Assembly: GCA_051047955.1 (NCBI GenBank)
Contig: JBPGPT010000042.1
Coordinates: forward strand, 62,001 to 115,297
DNA from: Cystobasidiomycetes sp. EMM_F5
Lineage: Eukaryota
Length of the DNA stretch: 53,297 nt
Direction of reading: 5' to 3'
Both the position numbers and the translations under genes were made by a program. The notes beneath the pieces were generated by a model. The model was not told the origin of the DNA, did not search any database, and saw only the letters and a program-made list of their open reading frames with translations. Positions 1 through 31,221 of the stretch are shown in pieces (positions within the stretch are counted from its first letter, which is position 1; every line of letters begins with the position of its first letter).

Positions 1-1669
1 ACTACACTCGCATCCTCTTCCGACAGCGGTCTCAGATATGCCTGAGCGTGTGAGTATGGCACAGTCCGCCTGGCATAGTCCTCTGGCAACCCAACGTGTG
101 GATCATGAGAGAGATATCCTGCCGCATAATCAGACTGGTACCCTTGTCAGTCATATCCCTACTTCTTTGTGTGAACGACTCACCTCCAACGCCTTCTCGA
201 GCTCATGTGTGAGCGCCACATACTTGTCCAGCGCAATCTTCCACTCGTCCCTTCCATGTGCAACATTTGATATTCGAGAAAGATCCTCCCTAAAGTGAAG
301 ATGTCGTCCTGCATTGAATACAGGCTTCCACATCCTAAACAAGTGCGCCTTGACTGCCGACAGGCCTGTAGTCGTCTTGAGTGACGCAACAATCGCCAGG
401 TACTGCCTCGACATTTGCACTAGCGGATAGTATGCGATGTTGGGGCATGCCGTATATCCCGCATCCACGCTATCCAGCATATCTAGCAGCTCGGGAGGTA
501 GAGCAGCGCGATATCTTGCAGCTCCGTCCCGATTGAGCGGTTCAAAAACAGCAGGATTGTACAAGTTACCCTCTGCAGACATGATACCGTCCACACCGGT
601 TCGTTCCAAACAGTCCTTGACGTCAAGATGCGTCAAGATGTTGCCATTCGCAAATACAGGAACAGAGACGGCCTGCTTGACTGCTCGAATCTTTTCCCAA
701 TCAGCTAGACCCGTAAGCTGCCCTTTTTGATCTCGCGTCCGCCCGTGAACAGTAAGAATCTGGGCGCCCGCTCGCTCGAGTATCTTGGCGTATTCCAAGG
801 TCTTGTCGAGCGTGTCGTACACCCGGAACTTGGCAGTAATGGGAACAGATAGGTTGGCGTTCAAATGAGAGACTATTACAAAAGTAATTAGGCTGCATAG
901 ACGTCATCTTGTTTGTTGGACTGCACATACTCATGCTTTCTATCAGGCCCCAGTCTTCCATGAGGAATGCGCCGTATTGACCGCGCTTAGCGATTCCTTG
1001 CGGGCAGCCCTGTCAAGAGACGCACATCAGCCGGCTGAGTCTGTCCGTACATCTGCAATTTGACGCATGCCGGACTTACGAGATTCAGGTCGACAGCATC
1101 CACCAAATCCCCACTCTCCGCTATCCTTCTAGCGGCGGTGAGAAATGTCTCTTTGTTGTTTGCACAAAACTGCGCCGTGACTGGTCTATCGAGCACATGC
1201 TTGCCCTCTTCGCCAGACTCGAAGTCGAATTGTTCGCGTTGATATCGTTCATTTTGGCTGTTACTAAATAGGCCTGCGTGGATCATGGGAGTGTAGGCGT
1301 GGTCTGCGCCGTGTATCCGTGATAGTATACGCCAAGCCTATCGTTCTGACGGTCAGTCCATTGAATGATGGGTATTATATGTTAGCTTGCACACCAGTTC
1401 AGACTGATCCACCATGGGCTACGATAGTGAAAGGATGCGGAAAGCGCAGGAGACACCAGATCAGCTCTCGCTTCATCACTTCACCCTGCTCTGCGACCAT
1501 AAAATCTTGCCCTTACCGCCACTATAAATTTGGGAGAGCCCATGCTCCTGTAGAGATCCCAGCTCGTCAGCTTGGGCTGTCGCTGTCCGTCCGTGGATCC
1601 ATTCTTGAAAAGACTGGCTCCAGTTGTGATGCAGTCCAAGGATGTCATGATTCTCGTAAAGCCATTCAA
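1..1669 (-). CDS. DUS1: tRNA-dihydrouridine synthase (Dus1-like), multi-exon, 3' end runs off the left edge
   Basis: Spliced motifs PKFIVA|PMVDQSEL|AWRILSR..YTPMIHA, QFCAN, VDLNL|GCPQGIAKRGQYGAFLME, TAKFR, LTVHGRTRDQKG..ADW, FANGNI, GIMSAEGNLYNP. Start is ATG 1669 or 1648. Confidence 0.93.
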
Positions 1670-12052: not shown

Positions 12053-13905
12053 TTACAACCTCACTAACGACACGCCGAGAATGCCCGGCGTCTTTTGCAG
12101 GTCATCCAGAACGTCACTCGACACATCCCCGCCAACCCCTAAGATCATCAGTGCTTCGTTGTCCTGCCCCGTCGTGCCCGGGTCACTTCCTACGCTCATA
12201 GACTCGAGCTTGGCCTCGAGATCCAGCGAGGCGACTTGCATGTAGACAATGTTGATGCCGTGCCGTCCGAGGACAGTACCGACCCCGCCAATCTTGCCGG
12301 GCTCGTCATAGTTGTGCAGCACAATCATCGTACCCTCGGGATGAAAGTTTGCTGTGAAGCTGTCGAGCTTGGACACGTAGAGCTGATTTGCAGCGACATA
12401 CCCCTCAATGACTCTATTTTCTATGCGGCCAGACGGAGTCTTGTACGACGCGCGCAGAGTCACAAGACTTGCGTACGCTAGATCCTCTTCCGCCGAAGCA
12501 TGGGTCTCGCTGATTAGCAATCCCTTGTCTTTTGCAATCATTGACGCATTGACGATATTGACGTCCCTTCCGCCCGAGTCGGATATACTCGATACCAAAC
12601 CTTTTACTAACGCTGCCAGAAGAGGACGCGTATTCTTGATGTTGGCGAGTTCGCCCTGATATACGAGCTCGAATCTTCTTCCGGCCATAACGCCCGTCCC
12701 ACCACCACCCCTCCTACTGAACAACGCCTGTGTCTGTGTAAACAGTCCTCCCATCTTTTCGACAAGCCGGACAAATGGCTGTAATCTTCTGTATTCTTCG
12801 GGTAGGATCAGCGGGGCATTGACGGCACTGGTGGGGACGCCGCCTCTTAATATCTCTGCAACTTGAGCACATACGTCCAGCGATACATTCTCTTGCGCTT
12901 CTACGGTAGATGCGCCAAGGTGGGGTGTCGCAACTACTTTCGGGTGCGCCGCTAGTTTTGCTGCGACCGAGTTCGCTCTCGGTGGCTCGCTTGTGAAGAC
13001 GTCGATGCCAGCACCAGCAATGAGTCCTTTGTCCAATGCCTGCAGTAGAGCCTCTTCGTTATATACACCTCCCCGGGCGACGTTGAGGACGCGAGCAGTC
13101 TTCTTCATCAATAGAAACTGCGGTCCGCCCAGCAAGTCCAGCGTCGTCGCAAGAAGTGGAGTGTGGATGGTGAGAAAGTCTGCGAGGGGAAGAATATCAT
13201 CGAGGGATGGCACCAACGTAACGCCTGCTTGTTTAGCAATGTCGGGACTCGCATAGGGGTCCAGAGCCATAACCTTCATTCCAAGTCCTATCCCCATCCG
13301 TGCGACTTTGAGCCCTACTTTGCCTAACCCTACTATTCCAAGTATCTTTCCCCCCACTTCTGCGCCGACCAGACTGCTCCGCTCCCATTTCTCTTTTTTG
13401 AGTAAAGCGTCTGCACGACCAACATTTCTTGCGGTAGCTAGGAGCAGTGCAATCGTGTGTTCTACTTATGAGTAAGCCGTCAGCATTACGAGTTGCGTAT
13501 TGAAGAATGTGCGACCCGTGAAAAGGACATACCTGCAGCAGCAGTGATGTTTCCGGACGGCGAGTTTACGACTATGATACCGAGCGAGCTTGCTGCGTTC
13601 ACGTCTATATTGTCGACGCCGACTCCAGCTCTCGCGACGACTTTTAGATTCTTCCCCGCTCTCAGGACTTCGGCACTCACGCGCGTCTCGGAACGCACTA
13701 TGAGGCCTGAGTATTCGGGTATCTCCTTCAGAAGCTGTTCCCCTGACAGCCCAATCTTGACGTCGACGTCGTAGTCTGCCAGCAAGGCTAGCCCGTCACC
13801 CGATATCTTCTCGGGAACCAATATCCTAGGCCTCCCCTTCCCCGTATTTCCGTTGATGCGGGGTCCCGCTGTATTGTAATTGAACGCAGCCATTTCTGAG
13901 TACAC
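12053..13905 (-). CDS. serA: D-3-phosphoglycerate dehydrogenase, type I architecture (catalytic + ASB + ACT), single intron 13462-13532
   Basis: LIVRSETRV, VVARAGVGVDNID, AAAEHTIA, GIVGLGKVG, LNVARGG, TPHLGASTVEAQENV, DVNIVNA (ASB) and NYDEPGKIGGVGTVLGRHGINI (ACT). Start is 13905 or 13893. Confidence 0.93.
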
Positions 13906-14221
13906 GCTGGACTGTGCTCGTGTAGTGTACTCTTAGACGCAACCAAGCGTAGTTGAATGGCCCTCGACTCTGGCTTGGAATGTAAAAGGTGCCTTCTCGT
14001 AGTTTGAAGCAAAGTAAAGTAGCTTCCAACAAGTCCAGATCAAAGTGCGTCTTTCCAGGAGGTTCAGCTTGCAGATATGTATAATTAGTTCTGCGAATGG
14101 CCTGGGTGCGTGCTCGACGGGCAGTTGCAGGAAATGCAAGGCATGATCTTTAATCTTTATCTGATTAGATTAGATCAAAAAACGTCTACTTAGATCAACA
14201 CAACCCATGGAGCAGCGGTAG

Positions 14222-15939
14222 ATGGGCAGCGATGATGCAGCACTGTCATCCACGACAGGCCAGCCATCGTGCAGCCGCAGTCTCCAGCCAGAACGACATC
14301 GAGCACTCGAAATCAGAACAACGGCAGACCGCGGAAGAGGCGTATTCGCAATTGAGGGTATTCCAGCCAATACGGTAGTGGACGAGTCGCCCGTGCTCAT
14401 CGTCTCCAACGACGAGTACACCCGACACTCGCTCAGCAAGTCAATTTTCGAAAGCTACCTATTCACTTGGGATAGAGCAAACGGCCACTATGCATTGGCA
14501 CTGGGGTGAGCAATAGTGCTATCGAGTGGTCCTGACGATGACCTGACCTCCTTTACCGCTCTTCTCAGCCTCGGCAGTCTGTTCAATCATGATACCGTAT
14601 CCCCAAACGTCTCATACGCCCTTGACAAGACAAAGCAGGTCATTCGATATACAACGAAACGACATGTAGACGAAGGAGAAGAACTATGCATATTCTATGG
14701 CCACGGTGTGCATTTCGGCGACAAGGGAGAATTGCTGGTAGAAAAGGATCCGGAAGCTCAGCAGACAGAAGAAGAGGCTATCACTGCATTAGAGTCGGTG
14801 AACATTCACGGTGGTTCTACATCAGTCGCCAATGCCAGCGACAACATGCACGATCCCGTAATCCATCCGGATGATCTGCCGTTTCAAATCGTAACAGGGA
14901 TTCTCAAGCCAGAAGATATGCCGCTCGAGACAGGTCAGTCCGTTAACAATACCATAGAAGTTACCTGATTTTGTATTGCCAGTCGATGCCTATTTCCTCA
15001 ACGTTAGCCCTCGCGAGTCCGGCAGAGTTCTCACCTTTCTCAAGGATCAAAACTTGGCTCAAATCCCACAACTCAGACACTGCAGACGTATTCGGAGTCA
15101 CAAGGGTATGCCGACTTGTGCATGCTGCGTTTACGGCGCTGATGCTAGCTCTACGACCTTTGCAACCCATAGACTCGTCGACGGTCCAAATTTTGCTCTG
15201 CCATTGTGAGACGTATTCGTTAACGGAGATGACAGGTCTACTGCAAGCGCACGTTCCCGGCCTTGGTGAGCCGCAAGTCGCAGCAGTCCCTGCAAATCCT
15301 GCACGCACAGCTTCACAACTTCGCGACTGGAGCAATGCATATTGGCCGGTCTCGCTCATCCCCATAAAGGAGGATGTAATGGCTGCTTCTCGTAACGTAA
15401 GCTGGACGAAAGATAGGCTGAGATGGGTACGATCATGCGCGGAAAGATTGGTCAAGCTATCTGAGCAGGCTCGGGCTGCCCAGCAAGTTCCTGTTGGGTG
15501 TTTCGTTACGGAAAGTTGGGTTGCTGGCCTGCATTCTTCGCAAAATCTGCCAATCGAACTATGTCACGATCTTGACACAAGGAAATCGTCTGGACACCCA
15601 TTAGCGCACTGCGCTCACAATATGATCTCCCAAGTCGCACGGATGGACAAGAGCGGTACGAGGCCAAGTATGCCGACGACCGATGCAAACTATCTGTTGA
15701 CGGGCCTGACGGTCTTCATCACGCATGAACCGTGCCTCTTCTGCTCAATGGCGCTTCTGCACAGCCGAATCGCGTGCTTGATCTATCTGAAGAGCAGTCC
15801 TGGATCGGGTGGATGTGGGACAGAGTACAGCTTGCACGAGCAAAAGGGCACAAACCATCATTTCGAAGTATGGACGCTGAAGGAGGGGATGTGGAGGGAT
15901 CTGACGAGGAGACTAGACGCTTTGCAGGTCGATGCATAA
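14222..15939 (+). CDS. TAD3: Fusion protein: N-terminal SET domain + tRNA-specific adenosine-34 deaminase subunit Tad3
   Basis: Introns 14506-14568, 14934-14982 and 15106-15172 join one frame. SET motifs RGRGVFA, LGSLFNH, ELCIFYG. Tad3 motifs LRHCRRIR, YWPV, HPLAHCA, YLLTGLTVFITHEPCLFCSMALLHSR, NHHFEVW. Confidence 0.88.
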
Positions 15940-15993
15940 ATGTCAGCGTTGTCGTTTCACCAATCTGAGCCGCCAGAGTGTTCTGCCTCGGCC

Positions 15994-17230
15994 ATGGGAG
16001 CTGCAGAGTCCAGGTCACTGACCTCGACGTCGTCGGATGTCAACATTCGCGGCCGTATTGGCTTCCACGTCCTCCGAGTCGCCGATGGGTCGCCCGCTGC
16101 TGTCGCAGGCATCGAGGCCTACTTTGACTACGTCGTGGGCGTGTCTGGTCAGCCGTTCAATGCGGCTACGCATGCTGGTCACGGCGGTGGGAATATCGAA
16201 GAGATGCTCGCGGGCATTGTTGACGACCACGAAGGGCGACAATTGAGCCTCCAAGTCTGGTCGAGCAAGCGGGCGGATCTCAGAGGTGCGATGACTTTTC
16301 ATTGGCGACATTGTGCGCAGGCTGATGTGATTGTGCTCGTTCGCAGACGTGACTGTGGTTCCATCGCGCGCGTGGTCGGCACACGACGAATCAACATCGG
16401 AAATGCAACCATCGCTGCTGGGTCTGTCTCTGCGGCTGTGCAATCCGGACGGGGCTCTCGAAAAGGTGTGGCACGTTCTTGAGATCCTCGAAGGATCACC
16501 CGCAGAGTCTGCTGGTCTGGTGCCCTTTGGCGACTACATCCTAGGCTACGCTAGCGGAGTGCTGCAAAAGGAATCCGACTTTTATGAACTCGTAGCGCAG
16601 TACGAGGATAAGCCTTTACGATTGTTCGTGTACAACTCGGACTTTGACGTGACGCGAGAAGTGGTCATTGTGCCTAATCGAGCTTGGGGTGCACAGAGTG
16701 CGGGAGCTGGGTTGCTAGGCTGTGGGATCGGCTATGGTGTACTCCATCGCATTCCAAGACCTTCCGAGGAGTCCGCCCGACCTTCACCGTCAACAACGCC
16801 GAGGCAAATGCAGCCTGCCCAATTCAATCAGCCATCACAACAGCCTAGCTCTTCACAGGCGCATCCTCAATCGCAACAACAACAAGCTCACGCCTCTTCT
16901 TCTACCTCTGTTCCATCACGTCCATCCGTGACCAGCTCAATCCCACCTAAACGTATGACTGCCTCGGTCGTGCCGGCTACCCCTCCTCGTACTGCATCTC
17001 CCGCAAACAATGTAGGCCGCATAGCCAGTCCTGCAGCGCGCAGTAACAATATAGCAACATCTCCGAGATCAGCCGACCGCTCTGTGGCCAACGGACAAGC
17101 TGCACTCGGGTACGGCAAGGCTCAATCGCACGCGTACGCCCTCAATCCTCCGCCGAGAAGTCCAAGCGCGCAGGGTAAACGAAGTAGCACGGCAGAAGTA
17201 ATTGACGAAGAGGAGGAGGAGCTTACTTGA
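15994..17230 (+). CDS. GRH1: GRASP55/65 Golgi reassembly-stacking protein
   Basis: MGAAES N-terminus, GFHVLRVADGSPA, VWHVLEILEGSPAESAGLVPFGDYI, GLLGCGIGYGVLHRIP, S/P/Q-rich tail. One intron near 16287-16346. Confidence 0.93.
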
Positions 17231-28900: not shown

Positions 28901-29709
28901 ATGCAATATCACTCCGCTGATTCAGCAGGCCGATGAATATGGCAACGCATGGAGACAGAGTGATTGCGGGAAGTTTGGTTTGTGAGAGGATGTGCTGGCG
29001 AACGTGTGAATATGCATCATGCGCTAGGAGTGTAGTAGCTATTTGGGTTGCGTATGTTTGTCGCAACGATGCTGGTATATCAAGGGTGGCATATTTGGCT
29101 GGATCGAGTAGTTGCTTGACCAATTCGAGATATAAAAAGTTGGACGGGGATCTGTGGAGTAAGCAAGGCGCTCAGCTGAATGCTTTTAAAGATGGCTTTA
29201 GCAGGTTCTGACATACTTTGGGTCAACTGCCGTATGCCGCAGCAGTATGACGGTCAATCGTCGGATAACCTGGCACCAGCGATAGAGGGAGTCATTCTGC
29301 GGTATGCTAGCGTCCTCGTCTGCGCGATGGAGCACTTGGAATGTATGGAACAGGTCAATGACGGGCTTCCCTGTGGCGACCATCCTCGCCCATTTCGCCA
29401 GTCTTTCATTGTCTGATGTATTGCGTTGCCTGTACACGAATGCGAGCCTCACAGCTGAGCCCAAGAGTAGCTGAGCGTGCTCCAGTTCCTGCGTCGCCGT
29501 CTGGATGGCCTGCTCGAGCAATACATCCAATTCCGACCGTACGGCCTGTCGAAACGCGGCTGCCTCTCTGCGGGACCTGTAGAATGACTGTATACGCCGT
29601 GCGTGAGCGTCCAGACGTCGCTGCTGTTGGCGATACTGCCGTTCTGCCCGAGCTCGTTGGGCGACATTATCCGTCGACGATGACGCGGTTGCGGATATCG
29701 CGGTACTCT

Positions 29710-29743
<34 letters not shown>

Positions 29744-29812
29744 GACTCGTGCACTCCCGCCCAGGTTGATGGCTCGCCGTGACCTCGTCTGCCCTTCAAA
29801 CGAGGTGAGCAT
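25927..29812 (-). CDS. HUL5: HECT-type E3 ubiquitin ligase (Hul5/UBE3C-like, N-terminal IQ motif)
   Basis: [100 protein letters not shown]. Confidence 0.92.
29711..29742. repeat. (CGA)~10 microsatellite encoding poly-Ser in the HECT ligase N-terminus
   Basis: cgacgacgac... run read directly; the minus strand gives (TCG)n = Ser run. Confidence 0.9.
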
Positions 29813-29918
29813 GGTTTGTGAAGATGTTGGCAATAAGCCAACTGAAAGAGATGGAAATTATAATGGACAACTGGAGATTGTAATCTGGACACACTGCACA
29901 TTCGTTCAAGAATCCAAC

Positions 29919-31221
29919 ATGTCGTCGGATTGCAATCCAGTCCTCAGCGACGCATACGCTGTCCTGGCCATTTCCGACCATGTCTCACTAAACACACAGG
30001 GAATACATTCACTCGCACAGCGATTCACCTCCTCCACTTCTACACCCTCCATTCATCTTCCCCAGGCAGACGAGTGGGCACGCAGTCCCCTCCATCCCAC
30101 CCCATCACTCCGAACACCCAAAGAGGTATGCGACTGGGTATTCCTAGTCTCCCTGCTCAACTTTAGCTTCTGGAGCGAGTTGGACGACGAGCACAGGTAT
30201 GCCGTGCGGTGGAGGTGTGGTGTTGATGGGAAAGGTCAAAGTGAGAGTGATCTTATGCATGGGAGGGGCAACTTGAAGGATTGGAAAGGATACTGGGCAC
30301 TACCGGCTGCTGTCAATCGAGCGCTCGAAGATGGCATACCCATCACTAATCCACATTACTGGACATCAGCAACAGAGGATGACATTGCCCACGTATTTCG
30401 GCCTTCCCCAGGTTCATGCGAAGCCATACCGCTACTCTCTGAGCGGGTGCGCATGTTGCGGGAGACTGGGACGATACTGTGTAGAGTAAGTTGTACAGAA
30501 TGCATAAGCTGGAGCAGCGTCTAATGTTGTAATATAGGATTGGTCTGGCAGTTTCTACAATCTACTGCAAAGCAGCGAGCCACGATACGACGCTTTGTCG
30601 ATTGTAAAAATGGTAGTGTCTACTCTTCCAGCTTTTCGTGACGAGTCTATCCATCCAAAGATCGGGCGGGGTGAGGGGTACAAGTGCAGATGTGTGAGAG
30701 ATGAATCGGCTGAATGTACTTTCACCACAGTTCGGCTGTGGAAGCGTGCACAGATCCTGGTCGCTGAGCTATGGGCTGCGTTTGCGTCGGCAGCGGATGT
30801 CGTGTCCTCCGATGGCTTGTCGGTCTATGCACACATCAGCAACATCTCCTCCCTGACCATGTTTGCAGACTAGTGGGTCATGACATTGCACGCTGATATA
30901 TTGGCTGACAATATTATATCCAGTCGCGTCCCTCAGATCCTCCACGACCTCTCCCTCATTACCTACTCTGCCCATCTCCACTCTGTCCTCTCCTCCAAAA
31001 CGCTGCTCGAGAATGGGAGCACGCTGGAGCTGTCTATTCGATGTGCGTCTATCGTGGCCGTCGAGGAGCTGCGACGGGCCATCGTGCAGGCGAGCAGCGA
31101 CAACGCTGCAGAGGTGAATGCCGTTCTCCTCGACTTTTGGCTGTGGAACGAAGCCAAGACGAGGGAACGAGACGGGGCGAGTCGGGTAGAGTGTCATCGT
31201 GTGCGGAGTGTGTGGTACTAG
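29919..31221 (+). CDS. QNG1: Queuosine 5'-phosphate N-glycosylase / queuosine salvage protein (DUF2419)
   Basis: DWVFLVSLLNFSFW, WKGYWALPAAVNRALEDGIPIT, IPLLSER, FRDES, LWKRAQILVAELW, TMFADY|RVPQIL, ELSIR, VLLDFWLW, HRVRSVWY*. Confidence 0.93.

What the first reader, a model, noticed from the sequence alone, without database searches (positions are those of the whole stretch)
14222..15939. SET lysine-methyltransferase domain fused in frame to the tRNA editing subunit Tad3
Seen in sequence: the ORF track shows separate fragments, but three canonical GT-AG introns (14506-14568, 14934-14982, 15106-15172) join them into one frame. A minimal SET domain (RGRGVFA, LGSLFNH, ELCIFYG; S. pombe Set7/viral vSET-like size, catalytic motifs intact) runs through an acidic linker (..PEDMPLET|VDAYFLNV..) into a full Tad3 (N-terminal domain plus pseudo-catalytic HCA/PCxxC zinc site). 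Established knowledge: yeast and human Tad3/ADAT3 have no SET domain; Tad2-Tad3 makes wobble inosine and also underlies sexual-stage mRNA A-to-I editing in Sordariomycetes. Inference: an essential RNA-editing complex physically carries a protein methyltransferase, which could couple lysine methylation (of Tad2, translation factors or histones) to I34 formation. I recall similar architectures in automated basidiomycete annotations, so it may be lineage-wide, but I know of no functional study.
Basis: partly seen in the sequence, partly recalled or inferred. Interest (0 to 1): 0.8.

Follow-up and report, generated by a model that had tools for sequence, protein, structure and literature searches.

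The report
Set7-type methyltransferase fused to Tad3
This fungal gene joins a small protein-methylating enzyme to the helper subunit of the enzyme that edits transfer RNAs, a pairing first described in basidiomycete fungi in 2011 whose purpose nobody has yet tested.

Summary
Four exons (14222-14505, 14569-14933, 14983-15105, 15173-15939), joined over three GT..AG introns, give one 512-codon frame with no stop.

The N-terminal third is a minimal SET domain. It is a close relative of S. pombe Set7 (PDB 5h6z): the two window exons match collinear halves of that chain, and the family profile scores E 1.5e-51.

A 57-residue acidic linker leads into a complete Tad3/ADAT3. The glutamate of the catalytic H-x-E motif is replaced (the motif reads H-C-A), and the PCxxC zinc site is kept.

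Exon 2 encodes both the SET C-terminal half and the first conserved segment of the Tad3 N-domain. The link therefore does not rest on splicing alone.

The architecture is already in print: Iyer et al. 2011 (PMC3239186) describe basidiomycete Tad3 fused to an N-terminal SET. I found it in 38 database proteins and upstream of Tad3 in 8 of 13 metagenome loci. The SET NH and Tyr residues are invariant (38 of 38), and dN/dS is about 0.1.

No RNA evidence could be obtained. An internal ATG (14846) could also give a stand-alone Tad3. The methylation target is unknown.

Verdict: real, and a new member of a known kind. Interest is moderate to low.

The parts
14222..14505 (+). Exon 1: start codon, a 25-residue leader and the N-terminal half of the SET domain (GxG motif RGRGVFA at 14330-14350).
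   Evidence: splice model. (Pfam SET profile 1-43). (5h6z_A residues 13-78, E 1e-11). M1 is the only in-frame Met upstream of the SET domain.
14506..14568 (+). Intron 1: 63 nt, GTGAGC..CTCAG, interrupting the SET domain inside ALALG|LGSLFNH.
   Evidence: The Set7 match is collinear across it. Relatives L001, L002, L005, L006, L007 and L010 have a 53-73 nt GT..AG intron within two codons of this site. The closest relatives P0245 and P0247 have none.
14569..14933 (+). Exon 2: the SET C-terminal half (NH motif 14570-14590, ELCIFYG with the catalytic Tyr 14681-14701), the acidic linker (aa 140-195, about 14702-14869), and the first conserved segment of the Tad3 N-domain (DDLPFQIV..PEDMPLET, 14870-14932).
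   Evidence: The family profile aligns ADAT3 from its residue 20-23 starting at the LPF motif. The frame was open in only 380 of 20000 shuffles.
14846..14848 (+). Internal in-frame ATG (Met188), 10 codons upstream of the Tad3 N-domain start. It is a possible start for a stand-alone Tad3 isoform.
   Evidence: It is not conserved: 16 of 38 fused relatives have no Met between the SET Tyr and the Tad3 N-domain start.
14934..14982 (+). Intron 2: 49 nt, GTCAGT..GCCAG, phase 1. It is the junction between the SET-bearing exon and the rest of Tad3.
   Evidence: The same site and phase are found in L001, L002 and L007. Metagenome ORF calls of the closest relatives begin exactly here. Its GC is 0.39 against 0.52 for the exons.
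14983..15105 (+). Exon 3: Tad3 N-terminal domain (VDAYFLNV ... LRHCRRIR).
   Evidence: alignment with relatives, HLKRVR motif. (ADAT3 N-domain).
15106..15172 (+). Intron 3: 67 nt, GTATGC..CATAG. It is specific to this lineage.
   Evidence: Removing it restores a gap-free alignment with relatives that have no intron here. The database ORF call P0013 reads through it out of frame.
15173..15939 (+). Exon 4: the rest of the Tad3 N-domain and the pseudo-catalytic deaminase domain (Pfam match about 15427-15789), ending in the TAA stop at 15937-15939. HCAHN at 15607-15621 has Ala where the catalytic Glu would be. HEPCLFC at 15724-15744 is the zinc site.
   Evidence: PF00383, E 6.2e-8. (ADAT3 9hmm_B, E 1.4e-18). 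(coordinates).
14207..14221 (+). Four-codon upstream ORF (ATG GAG CAG CGG TAG) in the same frame, ending directly against the main ATG.
   Evidence: Read. No test of function was made.

Best explanation
The locus is one gene for a 512-residue protein built from three parts. The first is an N-terminal minimal SET lysine methyltransferase, closely related to and probably orthologous with S. pombe Set7. The second is an acidic linker of about 57 residues that is probably disordered. The third is a complete Tad3/ADAT3.

It is a member of the SET-Tad3 fusion family of Basidiomycota described in 2011.

Shown:
- the open spliced frame
- the identity of both domains
- intact SET catalytic motifs
- loss of the deaminase catalytic Glu
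- conservation of the fusion in relatives
- purifying selection on the SET part in three pairs of relatives (not measured on the window gene itself)

Inferred:
- The Tad3 part pairs with the catalytic Tad2 and presents tRNA for A34-to-I34 deamination, as in yeast and mammals.
- The SET part is an active SAM-dependent lysine methyltransferase held on a flexible tether next to the tRNA-binding N-domain.
- It most likely methylates a protein lysine within reach of the complex, such as Tad2, Tad3 itself or a bound factor. Alternatively it keeps the histone H3K37 activity reported for Set7.

The target has not been shown.
For: Gene model:
- The frame is 512 codons with no stop, and the three introns are GT..AG.
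- Intron 2 sits at the same site and in the same phase in L001, L002 and L007.
- Every junction gives a gap-free alignment with relatives.

Physical link:
- Exon 2 alone carries the SET NH and Tyr motifs and also the LPF..PED segment where ADAT3 homology begins.
- The frame between them was open in only 380 of 20000 shuffles.

Domain identity:
- Against Set7 (5h6z_A), the window exons score E 1e-11 and 5e-7, and the profile of 38 fused proteins scores 1.5e-51. The next SET hit, vSET, scores 1.2e-16.
- ADAT3 scores 3.8e-48 and yeast Tad3 scores 2e-40 against the same profile.
- An AF2 model of the fused relative P0001 matches Set7 at Z 17.4, rmsd 1.6 A over 117 residues, and yeast ADAT2/3 at Z 20.2.
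- In that model the linker has pLDDT below 50 and pTM is 0.51.

Conservation:
- 12 of 12 long homologues carry SET.
- 23 of the 55 representatives scanned carry SET.
- Named members come from Microbotryomycetes, Atractiella, Tremellomycetes and Agaricomycetes.
- SET lies upstream of Tad3 on the same strand in 8 of 13 metagenome loci.
- NH and Tyr are each invariant in 38 of 38 fused proteins.
- dN/dS for the SET part is 0.10, 0.076 and 0.086 in three pairs, no higher than the Tad3 part at 0.10, 0.085 and 0.21.
- 16 of 38 fused proteins have no Met from which a separate Tad3 could start.

Prior description: PMC3239186 (passages read).
Against: - There is no transcript or protein evidence for this gene. 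No RNA run was listed.
- Met188 (14846), 10 codons before the Tad3 N-domain, could start a stand-alone Tad3.
- The SET ORF pieces of the two closest relatives, P0245 and P0247, end at the point where stand-alone Set7 proteins end. Their presumed Tad3 pieces start with Met at the intron-2 site. Those relatives could therefore be split, or could have an extra intron. Their DNA could not be fetched.
- SET-only gene models exist in several Agaricomycetes.
- SET-less Tad3 models exist in rusts, Wallemia, Phaffia, Mixia and Sparassis.
- L011 shows 578 nt of open frame upstream of Tad3 with no SET.
- The exon-1 Pfam score (21.4 bits) is just under the gathering cut-off when that exon is scored alone.
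- Methyltransferase activity, Tad2 binding and the target are all untested.
Confidence: 0.82

Rival explanations
1. The locus gives two products. Besides the fusion, or instead of it, an internal promoter or start at Met188 (14846) yields a stand-alone Tad3 of about 325 residues. Retention of intron 2 could yield a SET-only protein ending 11 codons into the intron. The essential tRNA editing would then not depend on the SET-bearing form.
For: - Met188 lies 10 codons before the Tad3 N-domain, and its ATG has an A at position -3.
- Reading through intron 2 hits a stop after 11 codons.
- The closest relatives' ORF pieces P0245 and P0247 stop where stand-alone Set7 ends, and P0015 and P0019 start with Met at the intron-2 site.
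- SET-only models are annotated in Serendipita, Exidia, Auricularia and others.
- In Fusarium, TAD2 and TAD3 use alternative promoters and alternative starts (PMC11087585 passages).
Against: - The Met is not conserved: 16 of 38 fused proteins have none in the linker. The L002 model has no Met from the SET NH motif until deep inside the deaminase domain.
- The frame is kept open across the linker (380 of 20000 shuffles), and the linker shows dN/dS 0.15 in L007/L010.
- Several so-called Tad3-only models (Galerina, Hymenopellis, Tulasnella) start inside the SET domain, so they are truncated fusion models.
Confidence: 0.2
2. The SET domain is not an enzyme here. It serves as a structural, dimerising or docking module for the deaminase complex, or it is a neutral passenger kept only because separating the two parts would need a new promoter and start codon.
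For: - No activity data exist for any fused member.
- The catalytic Tyr looks replaced in the Galerina model.
- GRG is seen in only 26 of 38 alignment rows. Seven of the other rows are gaps from truncated models.
Against: - NH and Tyr are each invariant in 38 of 38 fused proteins, and ELxIxY is invariant too.
- The SET dN/dS of 0.08-0.10 is as low as that of Tad3.
- The SET domain in the AF2 model of the fused relative P0001 superposes on the Set7 crystal structure at rmsd 1.6 A.
- A passenger would not keep its catalytic residues across three subphyla-level lineages.
Confidence: 0.12
3. The SET part does not methylate a protein. It acts on an amine-bearing modified nucleoside at or near the tRNA wobble position. 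This is the alternative offered by Iyer et al. 2011.
For: The idea is stated in PMC3239186. The tether places the SET next to the tRNA-binding N-domain.
Against: - Its nearest solved relative, Set7, is titled a histone H3K37 methyltransferase. I saw only the title, in reference lists.
- No such base is known.
Confidence: 0.04

Closest known systems
SET-Tad3 fusion of basidiomycete fungi (Iyer, Zhang, Rogozin, Aravind 2011, NAR 39:9473, PMC3239186; their example is Cryptococcus CNBC2910)
   Same: The architecture is the same: an N-terminal SET, a linker, then a full pseudo-catalytic Tad3 in one reading frame. The conserved motifs are the same, and intron 2 sits at the same site as in Microbotryomycete relatives.
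   Different: It is only a divergent member. Identity to the nearest named fused protein (Microbotryum saponariae, P0001) is 47% over the Tad3 part. It has a short leader and a short linker, an intron 3 of its own, and lacks the RGE|HP intron of the relatives. Its lineage is unresolved among Pucciniomycotina-like sequences.
S. pombe Set7, PDB 5h6z/5ww0 (Shen et al. 2019, Structure 27:631; title seen only in reference lists)
   Same: Both are minimal SET domains with no pre-SET or post-SET cysteine clusters, and both carry the GxG, NH and ELCIxYG motifs. The window exons match at E 1e-11 and 5e-7, the family profile matches at 1.5e-51, and the model of a fused relative matches at Z 17.4, rmsd 1.6 A, 47% identity.
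   Different: Set7 is a stand-alone protein, as are its relatives in Mucoromycota and a chytrid. Here the same module continues into Tad3. Whether the H3K37 specificity is kept is unknown.
Tad3/ADAT3 of yeast and mammals (PDB 7bv5, 7nz7, 9hmm)
   Same: Both have the N-terminal tRNA-binding domain plus a deaminase fold with the catalytic Glu replaced and the PCxxC zinc site kept. The profile match covers ADAT3 from residue 20-23 to its end.
   Different: Those proteins start about 20-28 residues before the first conserved segment and have no SET domain.
Chlorella virus vSET (PBCV-1 A612L, PDB 1n3j)
   Same: It is a minimal SET domain of similar size, and it is the second-best SET match (E 1.2e-16).
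   Different: It is much more distant than Set7, it is viral, and it is a stand-alone H3K27 enzyme according to its PDB title.
Fusarium FgTad2-FgTad3-Ame1 machinery (PMC11087585)
   Same: An accessory protein sits at the Tad3 N-terminal domain and changes what the deaminase does. A modified lysine in the N-domain/deaminase linker also matters. This is a functional analogy only.
   Different: Ame1 is a separate DUF726 protein, not a SET domain and not fused. The modification reported there is acetylation.

Membership tests
SET-domain lysine methyltransferase, Set7-type minimal SET | SET fold recognised by Pfam PF00856 | tested here: met
   Exon 1 covers profile positions 1-43 (E 3.5e-4, 21.4 bits). 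Exon 2 covers positions 63-105 (E 2.2e-5, 25.3 bits; cut-off 22.4). The two halves are collinear. The whole spliced domain could not be handed to the tool. Fused relatives score 40-63 bits.
SET-domain lysine methyltransferase, Set7-type minimal SET | Catalytic and SAM-binding motifs: GxG, NH, and ELxFxY with the catalytic Tyr | tested here: met
   RGRGVFA, LGSLFNH and ELCIFYG are present. NH and Tyr are each invariant in 38 of 38 fused relatives. The assignment of functions to these motifs is from established knowledge of SET domains, not from a call.
SET-domain lysine methyltransferase, Set7-type minimal SET | Closest to S. pombe Set7 rather than to other SET subfamilies | tested here: met
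   5h6z_A is the only PDB hit for each window exon. With the family profile, Set7 scores 1.5e-51 against 1.2e-16 for vSET and no better than 4e-4 for MLL, EZH2 and SMYD. Z 17.4 against 14.2 for the next SET.
SET-domain lysine methyltransferase, Set7-type minimal SET | Methyl transfer to a protein lysine | not testable with these tools
   This needs a biochemical assay.
Tad3/ADAT3, the non-catalytic subunit of the tRNA A34 deaminase | Cytidine-deaminase fold with the PCxxC zinc site | tested here: met
   PF00383 at E 6.2e-8. HEPCLFC at aa 442-448. ADAT3 chains at E about 1e-18.
Tad3/ADAT3, the non-catalytic subunit of the tRNA A34 deaminase | Catalytic Glu of the H-x-E motif replaced | tested here: met
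   The window reads H-C-A at aa 403-405. Iyer et al. 2011 and PMC11087585 both state that Tad3 lacks this Glu.
Tad3/ADAT3, the non-catalytic subunit of the tRNA A34 deaminase | ADAT3-type N-terminal domain upstream of the deaminase domain | tested here: met
   The family profile aligns to ADAT3 from residue 20-23 and to yeast Tad3 from residue 28. The window segments LPFQIV..PEDMPLET, VDAYFLNV and LRHCRRIR align with that region. Window exon 4 on its own aligns from ADAT3 residue 109.
Tad3/ADAT3, the non-catalytic subunit of the tRNA A34 deaminase | Heterodimer with Tad2, and the only Tad3 copy in the genome | not testable with these tools
   No whole genome is held for this window. No Tad2 gene was found among the 30 long ORFs of the window that were scanned.
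Basidiomycete SET-Tad3 fusion (Iyer et al. 2011) | SET and Tad3 in one reading frame, with SET at the N-terminus | tested here: met
   A spliced frame of 512 codons. Exon 2 carries both the SET C-terminal half and the start of the Tad3 N-domain.
Basidiomycete SET-Tad3 fusion (Iyer et al. 2011) | Expressed as one mRNA and one polypeptide | not tested
Basidiomycete SET-Tad3 fusion (Iyer et al. 2011) | Host is a basidiomycete | tested here: inconclusive
   The best named hits are Microbotryomycetes, at 41-47% identity. In a Tad3 tree the window sits unresolved among Pucciniomycotina-like rows. The organism was not identified.

The most novel reading that the evidence does not exclude
The fusion may be a 'Rosetta stone' for a functional partnership that also exists where the two genes are separate. 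Under this reading, Set7-type methyltransferases are regulators of the Tad2-Tad3 deaminase, methylating a lysine of Tad2, of Tad3 or of a factor bound at the Tad3 N-domain. The gametogenesis role reported for stand-alone S. pombe Set7 would then work at least partly through tRNA or mRNA inosine formation rather than only through histone H3K37. This would parallel the sexual-stage retargeting of Tad2-Tad3 by Ame1 in Sordariomycetes.
Probability: 0.15. Interest if true: 0.7.

Novelty: new member of a known kind. Interest (0 to 1): 0.35.

Why it matters
Tad2-Tad3 makes wobble inosine, a modification that shapes decoding in eukaryotes. In some ascomycetes the same enzyme is retargeted to mRNA during sex by a protein that docks on the Tad3 N-domain (PMC11087585). 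A catalytically intact methyltransferase held permanently at that N-domain throughout a major fungal phylum suggests a regulatory layer that has not been studied.

- The SET part appears to be the counterpart of S. pombe Set7: that is its nearest solved relative by a wide margin, though no reciprocal search or SET phylogeny was run.
- It is under selection as strong as that on Tad3.
- Stand-alone Set7 exists outside Basidiomycota.

Together these make a Set7-ADAT link testable in model yeasts. As a genome-scan finding, however, it is an expected member of a described architecture.

Tried and rejected
- RNA evidence: the look-up of sequencing runs for 14000-16200 listed no RNA holder (none was listed, which is not the same as none existing).
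- Whole genome: none is held. A second Tad3 copy, a stand-alone Set7 and a Tad2 gene could not be looked for.
- Domain docking: complex prediction with the SET part (residues 70-200) against the Tad3 part (255-590) of relative P0001 gave no verdict (score 0.00, mark 0.34; the alignment was not used and the controls were not run). This is evidence neither for nor against binding.
- Database ORF P0013 (317 aa): this is the collection's own call for the window. It starts out of frame in exon 3 and reads through intron 3, so it was rejected as evidence for an unfused Tad3.
- First splice-modelling script: it had a frame-anchor bug and its models were discarded.
- Corrected splice-modelling script: it gave clean models for L001, L002 and L007. 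Its intron-2 calls for L005 and L006 (250-270 nt, cutting into the SET end or the linker) are unreliable. I used those two loci only for SET and Tad3 dN/dS.
- L007 tblastn HSP: it appeared to span SET to Tad3 in one frame, but it crosses two in-frame stops that lie inside introns. It is not a single exon.
- Uninformative loci: L003, L004 and L012 are cut inside Tad3. L013 starts about 40 codons before the N-domain. L011 has 578 nt of open frame upstream with no SET.
- DNA of the closest relatives: the contigs of P0015/P0247 and P0019/P0245 could not be reached.
- Literature: three searches for a functional study of the fusion and word searches inside four papers found only the 2011 note.
- Set7 paper: the 2019 paper is not held.
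- Earlier findings of this scan: none.
- Tree: P0048's last 300 residues are not Tad3, because that model carries an extra C-terminal DUF2834. Its long branch in the tree should be ignored.
Full report
**1. The observation**

- Exons 14222-14505, 14569-14933, 14983-15105 and 15173-15939 sum to 1539 nt, which is 512 codons and a TAA stop, with no internal stop.
- The three introns are 63, 49 and 67 nt long and have GT..AG ends.
- Without splicing, the frame stops one codon into intron 1 and eleven codons into intron 2. Intron 3 shifts the frame.

**2. What the parts are**

*SET domain.*
- Pfam finds the SET domain split cleanly between exon 1 (profile 1-43) and exon 2 (profile 63-105). It finds a cytidine/dCMP deaminase domain in exon 4.
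- Against solved structures, exon 1 hits only S. pombe Set7 (5h6z_A, residues 13-78, E 1e-11). Exon 2 hits only the same chain (residues 80-140, E 5e-7). The two matches are collinear across intron 1.

*Tad3 part.*
- Exon 4 hits mouse and human ADAT3 at E about 1e-18.
- A profile of 38 fused homologues matches Set7 at 1.5e-51, ADAT3 at 3.8e-48 and yeast Tad3 at 2e-40. The next SET match is Chlorella virus vSET at 1.2e-16.
- ADAT3 homology starts at ADAT3 residue 20-23, at the conserved 'LPF ... PED' segment.
- In the window that segment (DDLPFQIV ... PEDMPLET, 14870-14932) lies in exon 2, upstream of intron 2. It is in the same exon as the SET NH and Tyr motifs.
- The physical link between the two domains therefore does not depend on any predicted splice. 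It is 78 contiguous open codons, and these stayed open in only 380 of 20000 shuffles.
- The deaminase motif reads H-C-A where active enzymes have H-A-E, and the PCxxC site is present. This is the Tad3 signature.

*Structure.*
- An AlphaFold2 model was made of the nearest named fused relative, Microbotryum saponariae P0001, using the 38-sequence alignment.
- It gives a confident SET domain (pLDDT 84-96), a linker below pLDDT 50, a confident Tad3, and pTM 0.51.
- The model matches the Set7 crystal structure at Z 17.4, rmsd 1.6 A over 117 residues. It matches yeast ADAT2/3 at Z 20.2 (rmsd 9.0 A over 285 residues).
- The window's own spliced protein was not submitted to the folding tool, so this structure is by proxy.

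**3. Relatives**

*Database proteins.*
- Using exon 4 as query, all 12 homologues longer than 446 residues carry SET.
- Among the 150 best cluster representatives of a full HMMER scan (2439 hits at E up to 1e-3), I scanned the 55 that are at least 370 residues long. One 2893-residue protein was left out and the 94 shorter ones were not scanned. Of those 55, 23 carry SET.
- Named members come from Microbotryum, Sporobolomyces, Rhodosporidiobolus, Pseudohyphozyma, Atractiella, Tremella, Cryptococcus, Cryptotrichosporon, Suillus and Hymenopellis. One is already named 'Set and Cytidine deaminase-like domain containing protein'.

*Metagenome loci.* Thirteen loci encoding relatives were fetched.
- In eight of them (L001, L002, L005, L006, L007, L008, L009, L010), SET lies directly upstream on the same strand.
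- Three are cut inside Tad3.
- L013 begins too close to the gene to tell.
- L011 has 578 nt of open upstream frame without SET.
- Clean GT..AG models for L001, L002 and L007 place an intron at the same site and phase as window intron 2.
- In L010 the corresponding stretch is open in frame, so one 490-codon ORF runs from the SET NH motif into Tad3.
- By the Tad3 tree these loci are Microbotryomycetes. They add DNA-level evidence but not a new lineage.

*Selection and internal starts.*
- Across the 38 fused proteins, the NH pair and the catalytic Tyr are invariant.
- dN/dS of the SET part is 0.10, 0.076 and 0.086 in three pairs. The Tad3 part gives 0.10, 0.085 and 0.21.
- Sixteen of the 38 have no Met between the SET Tyr and the Tad3 N-domain. 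In those proteins a separately initiated full Tad3 is not possible from an AUG.

**4. What speaks against a simple fusion**

- No RNA data could be found.
- Met188 (14846-14848), ten codons before the Tad3 N-domain, is a natural place for a stand-alone Tad3 to start.
- The closest relatives of the window (about 50% identity, metagenome ORF calls) are seen only as pieces.
  - Tad3 pieces start exactly at the intron-2 site. Two of them, P0015 and P0019, start with a Met there.
  - SET pieces P0247 and P0245 lie on contigs of the same lengths as those Tad3 pieces. They end at the motif where the stand-alone Set7 of Lichtheimia and the SET-only models of Serendipita end.
  - Either an extra intron starts there or those organisms have adjacent, unfused genes. 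I could not fetch their DNA.
- SET-only gene models are annotated in several Agaricomycetes.
- Tad3 models without SET exist in Melampsora, Cronartium, Wallemia, Phaffia, Mixia and Sparassis.
- Three other apparent Tad3-only models (Galerina, Hymenopellis, Tulasnella) begin inside the SET domain. They are truncated fusion models.

**5. How it most likely works**

*Shown.*
- One open frame joins an intact Set7-type SET domain to a complete pseudo-catalytic Tad3.
- The linker is acidic (11 acidic and 2 basic residues of 57). The corresponding segment of the relative's model is predicted to be disordered.

*Inferred from the families.*
- Tad3 pairs with catalytic Tad2, and its N-domain binds tRNA for A34-to-I34 deamination.
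- The SET part is an active SAM-dependent lysine methyltransferase.
- The tether keeps it within reach of the Tad3 N-domain, of Tad2 and of bound factors.

*Target.* My preferred reading is that the target is a protein of, or at, the deaminase complex. The main alternative is retained histone H3K37 activity, as the title of the 2019 Set7 paper states. I saw that paper only in reference lists, and it is not held.

*Functional parallel.* In Fusarium, Ame1 docks on the Tad3 N-domain to redirect Tad2-Tad3 to mRNA, and a modified lysine between the N-domain and the deaminase domain matters for sexual development (passages of PMC11087585).

*Docking test.* A test of the SET part against the Tad3 part gave no verdict.

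**6. Comparison with what is known, and novelty**

- The architecture was published in 2011. Iyer et al. [quoted passage not shown] They propose methylation of editing proteins or synthesis of an unknown base.
- Three literature searches and word searches in a fungal SET survey, two Cryptococcus SET papers and the Fusarium editing paper found no functional study and no other mention.
- The window gene is therefore a new, divergent member of a known kind.
  - Set7 is the nearest solved relative of the SET part, by a wide margin over other SET families.
  - Stand-alone Set7 relatives exist in Mucoromycota and a chytrid. This points to a fusion at or near the base of Basidiomycota.
  - The SET part is under purifying selection.
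  - The internal-start analysis shows no conserved start for a separate Tad3.

**7. Surroundings**

- The window is an ordinary fungal chromosome stretch with GC 0.52.
- Its genes include Dus, Prp3, dynamin, phosphoglycerate dehydrogenase (divergent from this gene, with about 290-325 bp between the two starts), GRASP (its likely ATG is 54 nt after the Tad3 stop), a HECT ligase, a queuosine-salvage protein and Pet127.
- No Tad2 gene was seen among the ORFs scanned.

**8. Verdict**

- The architecture has been in print since 2011.
- Interest is 0.35.

Noticed in passing
window 14207-14224: A four-codon upstream ORF (ATG GAG CAG CGG TAG) sits in the same frame as the main ORF and ends directly against its ATG. 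The main ATG has a T at position -3. This may affect translation of the fusion gene.
   Followed up: no
window 15937-15996: The downstream GRASP55/65-family gene is packed very close. An ATG follows the Tad3 stop immediately (15940), and the likely myristoylation-type start (MGAAES, ATG at 15994) is only 54 nt after the stop. The Tad3 3' UTR must therefore overlap the GRASP 5' region.
   Followed up: partly
window 12056-13932 (- strand): A D-3-phosphoglycerate dehydrogenase gene (2-Hacid_dh, PGDH_inter and ACT domains) is transcribed divergently from the SET-Tad3 gene. The shared upstream region of roughly 290-325 bp has a lower GC content (0.45).
   Followed up: partly
window 29607-30521 (+) and 154-903 (-): Two other genes for tRNA-modification functions lie in the same 53-kb window: a queuosine-salvage protein (Q_salvage, E 4e-31) and a dihydrouridine synthase (Dus, E 7e-37). 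This is probably coincidence.
   Followed up: no
P0029 (Mixia osmundae, 423 aa): This annotated Tad3 has about 85 residues before the LPF motif. They include a Set7-tail-like W..L motif but no recognisable SET domain. It may be a degenerate or mis-modelled SET remnant.
   Followed up: no
P0041 (Galerina marginata, 421 aa): The model starts inside the SET domain and reads ELCISDG where the relatives have ELCIFYG, so the catalytic Tyr appears to be replaced. This could be a splice-model error or a real inactivation.
   Followed up: no
P0079, P0154, P0093: Other N-terminal partners appear on Tad3-like deaminase domains in the database: SRAP peptidase, an adenosine/AMP deaminase domain, and WD40 repeats. 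These may be merged gene models or further fusions.
   Followed up: no
P0230: A Set7-like 180-residue protein is filed under the liverwort Calypogeia fissa, on a 66-Mb scaffold. It could be a plant Set7 homologue or fungal sequence inside a plant assembly.
   Followed up: no
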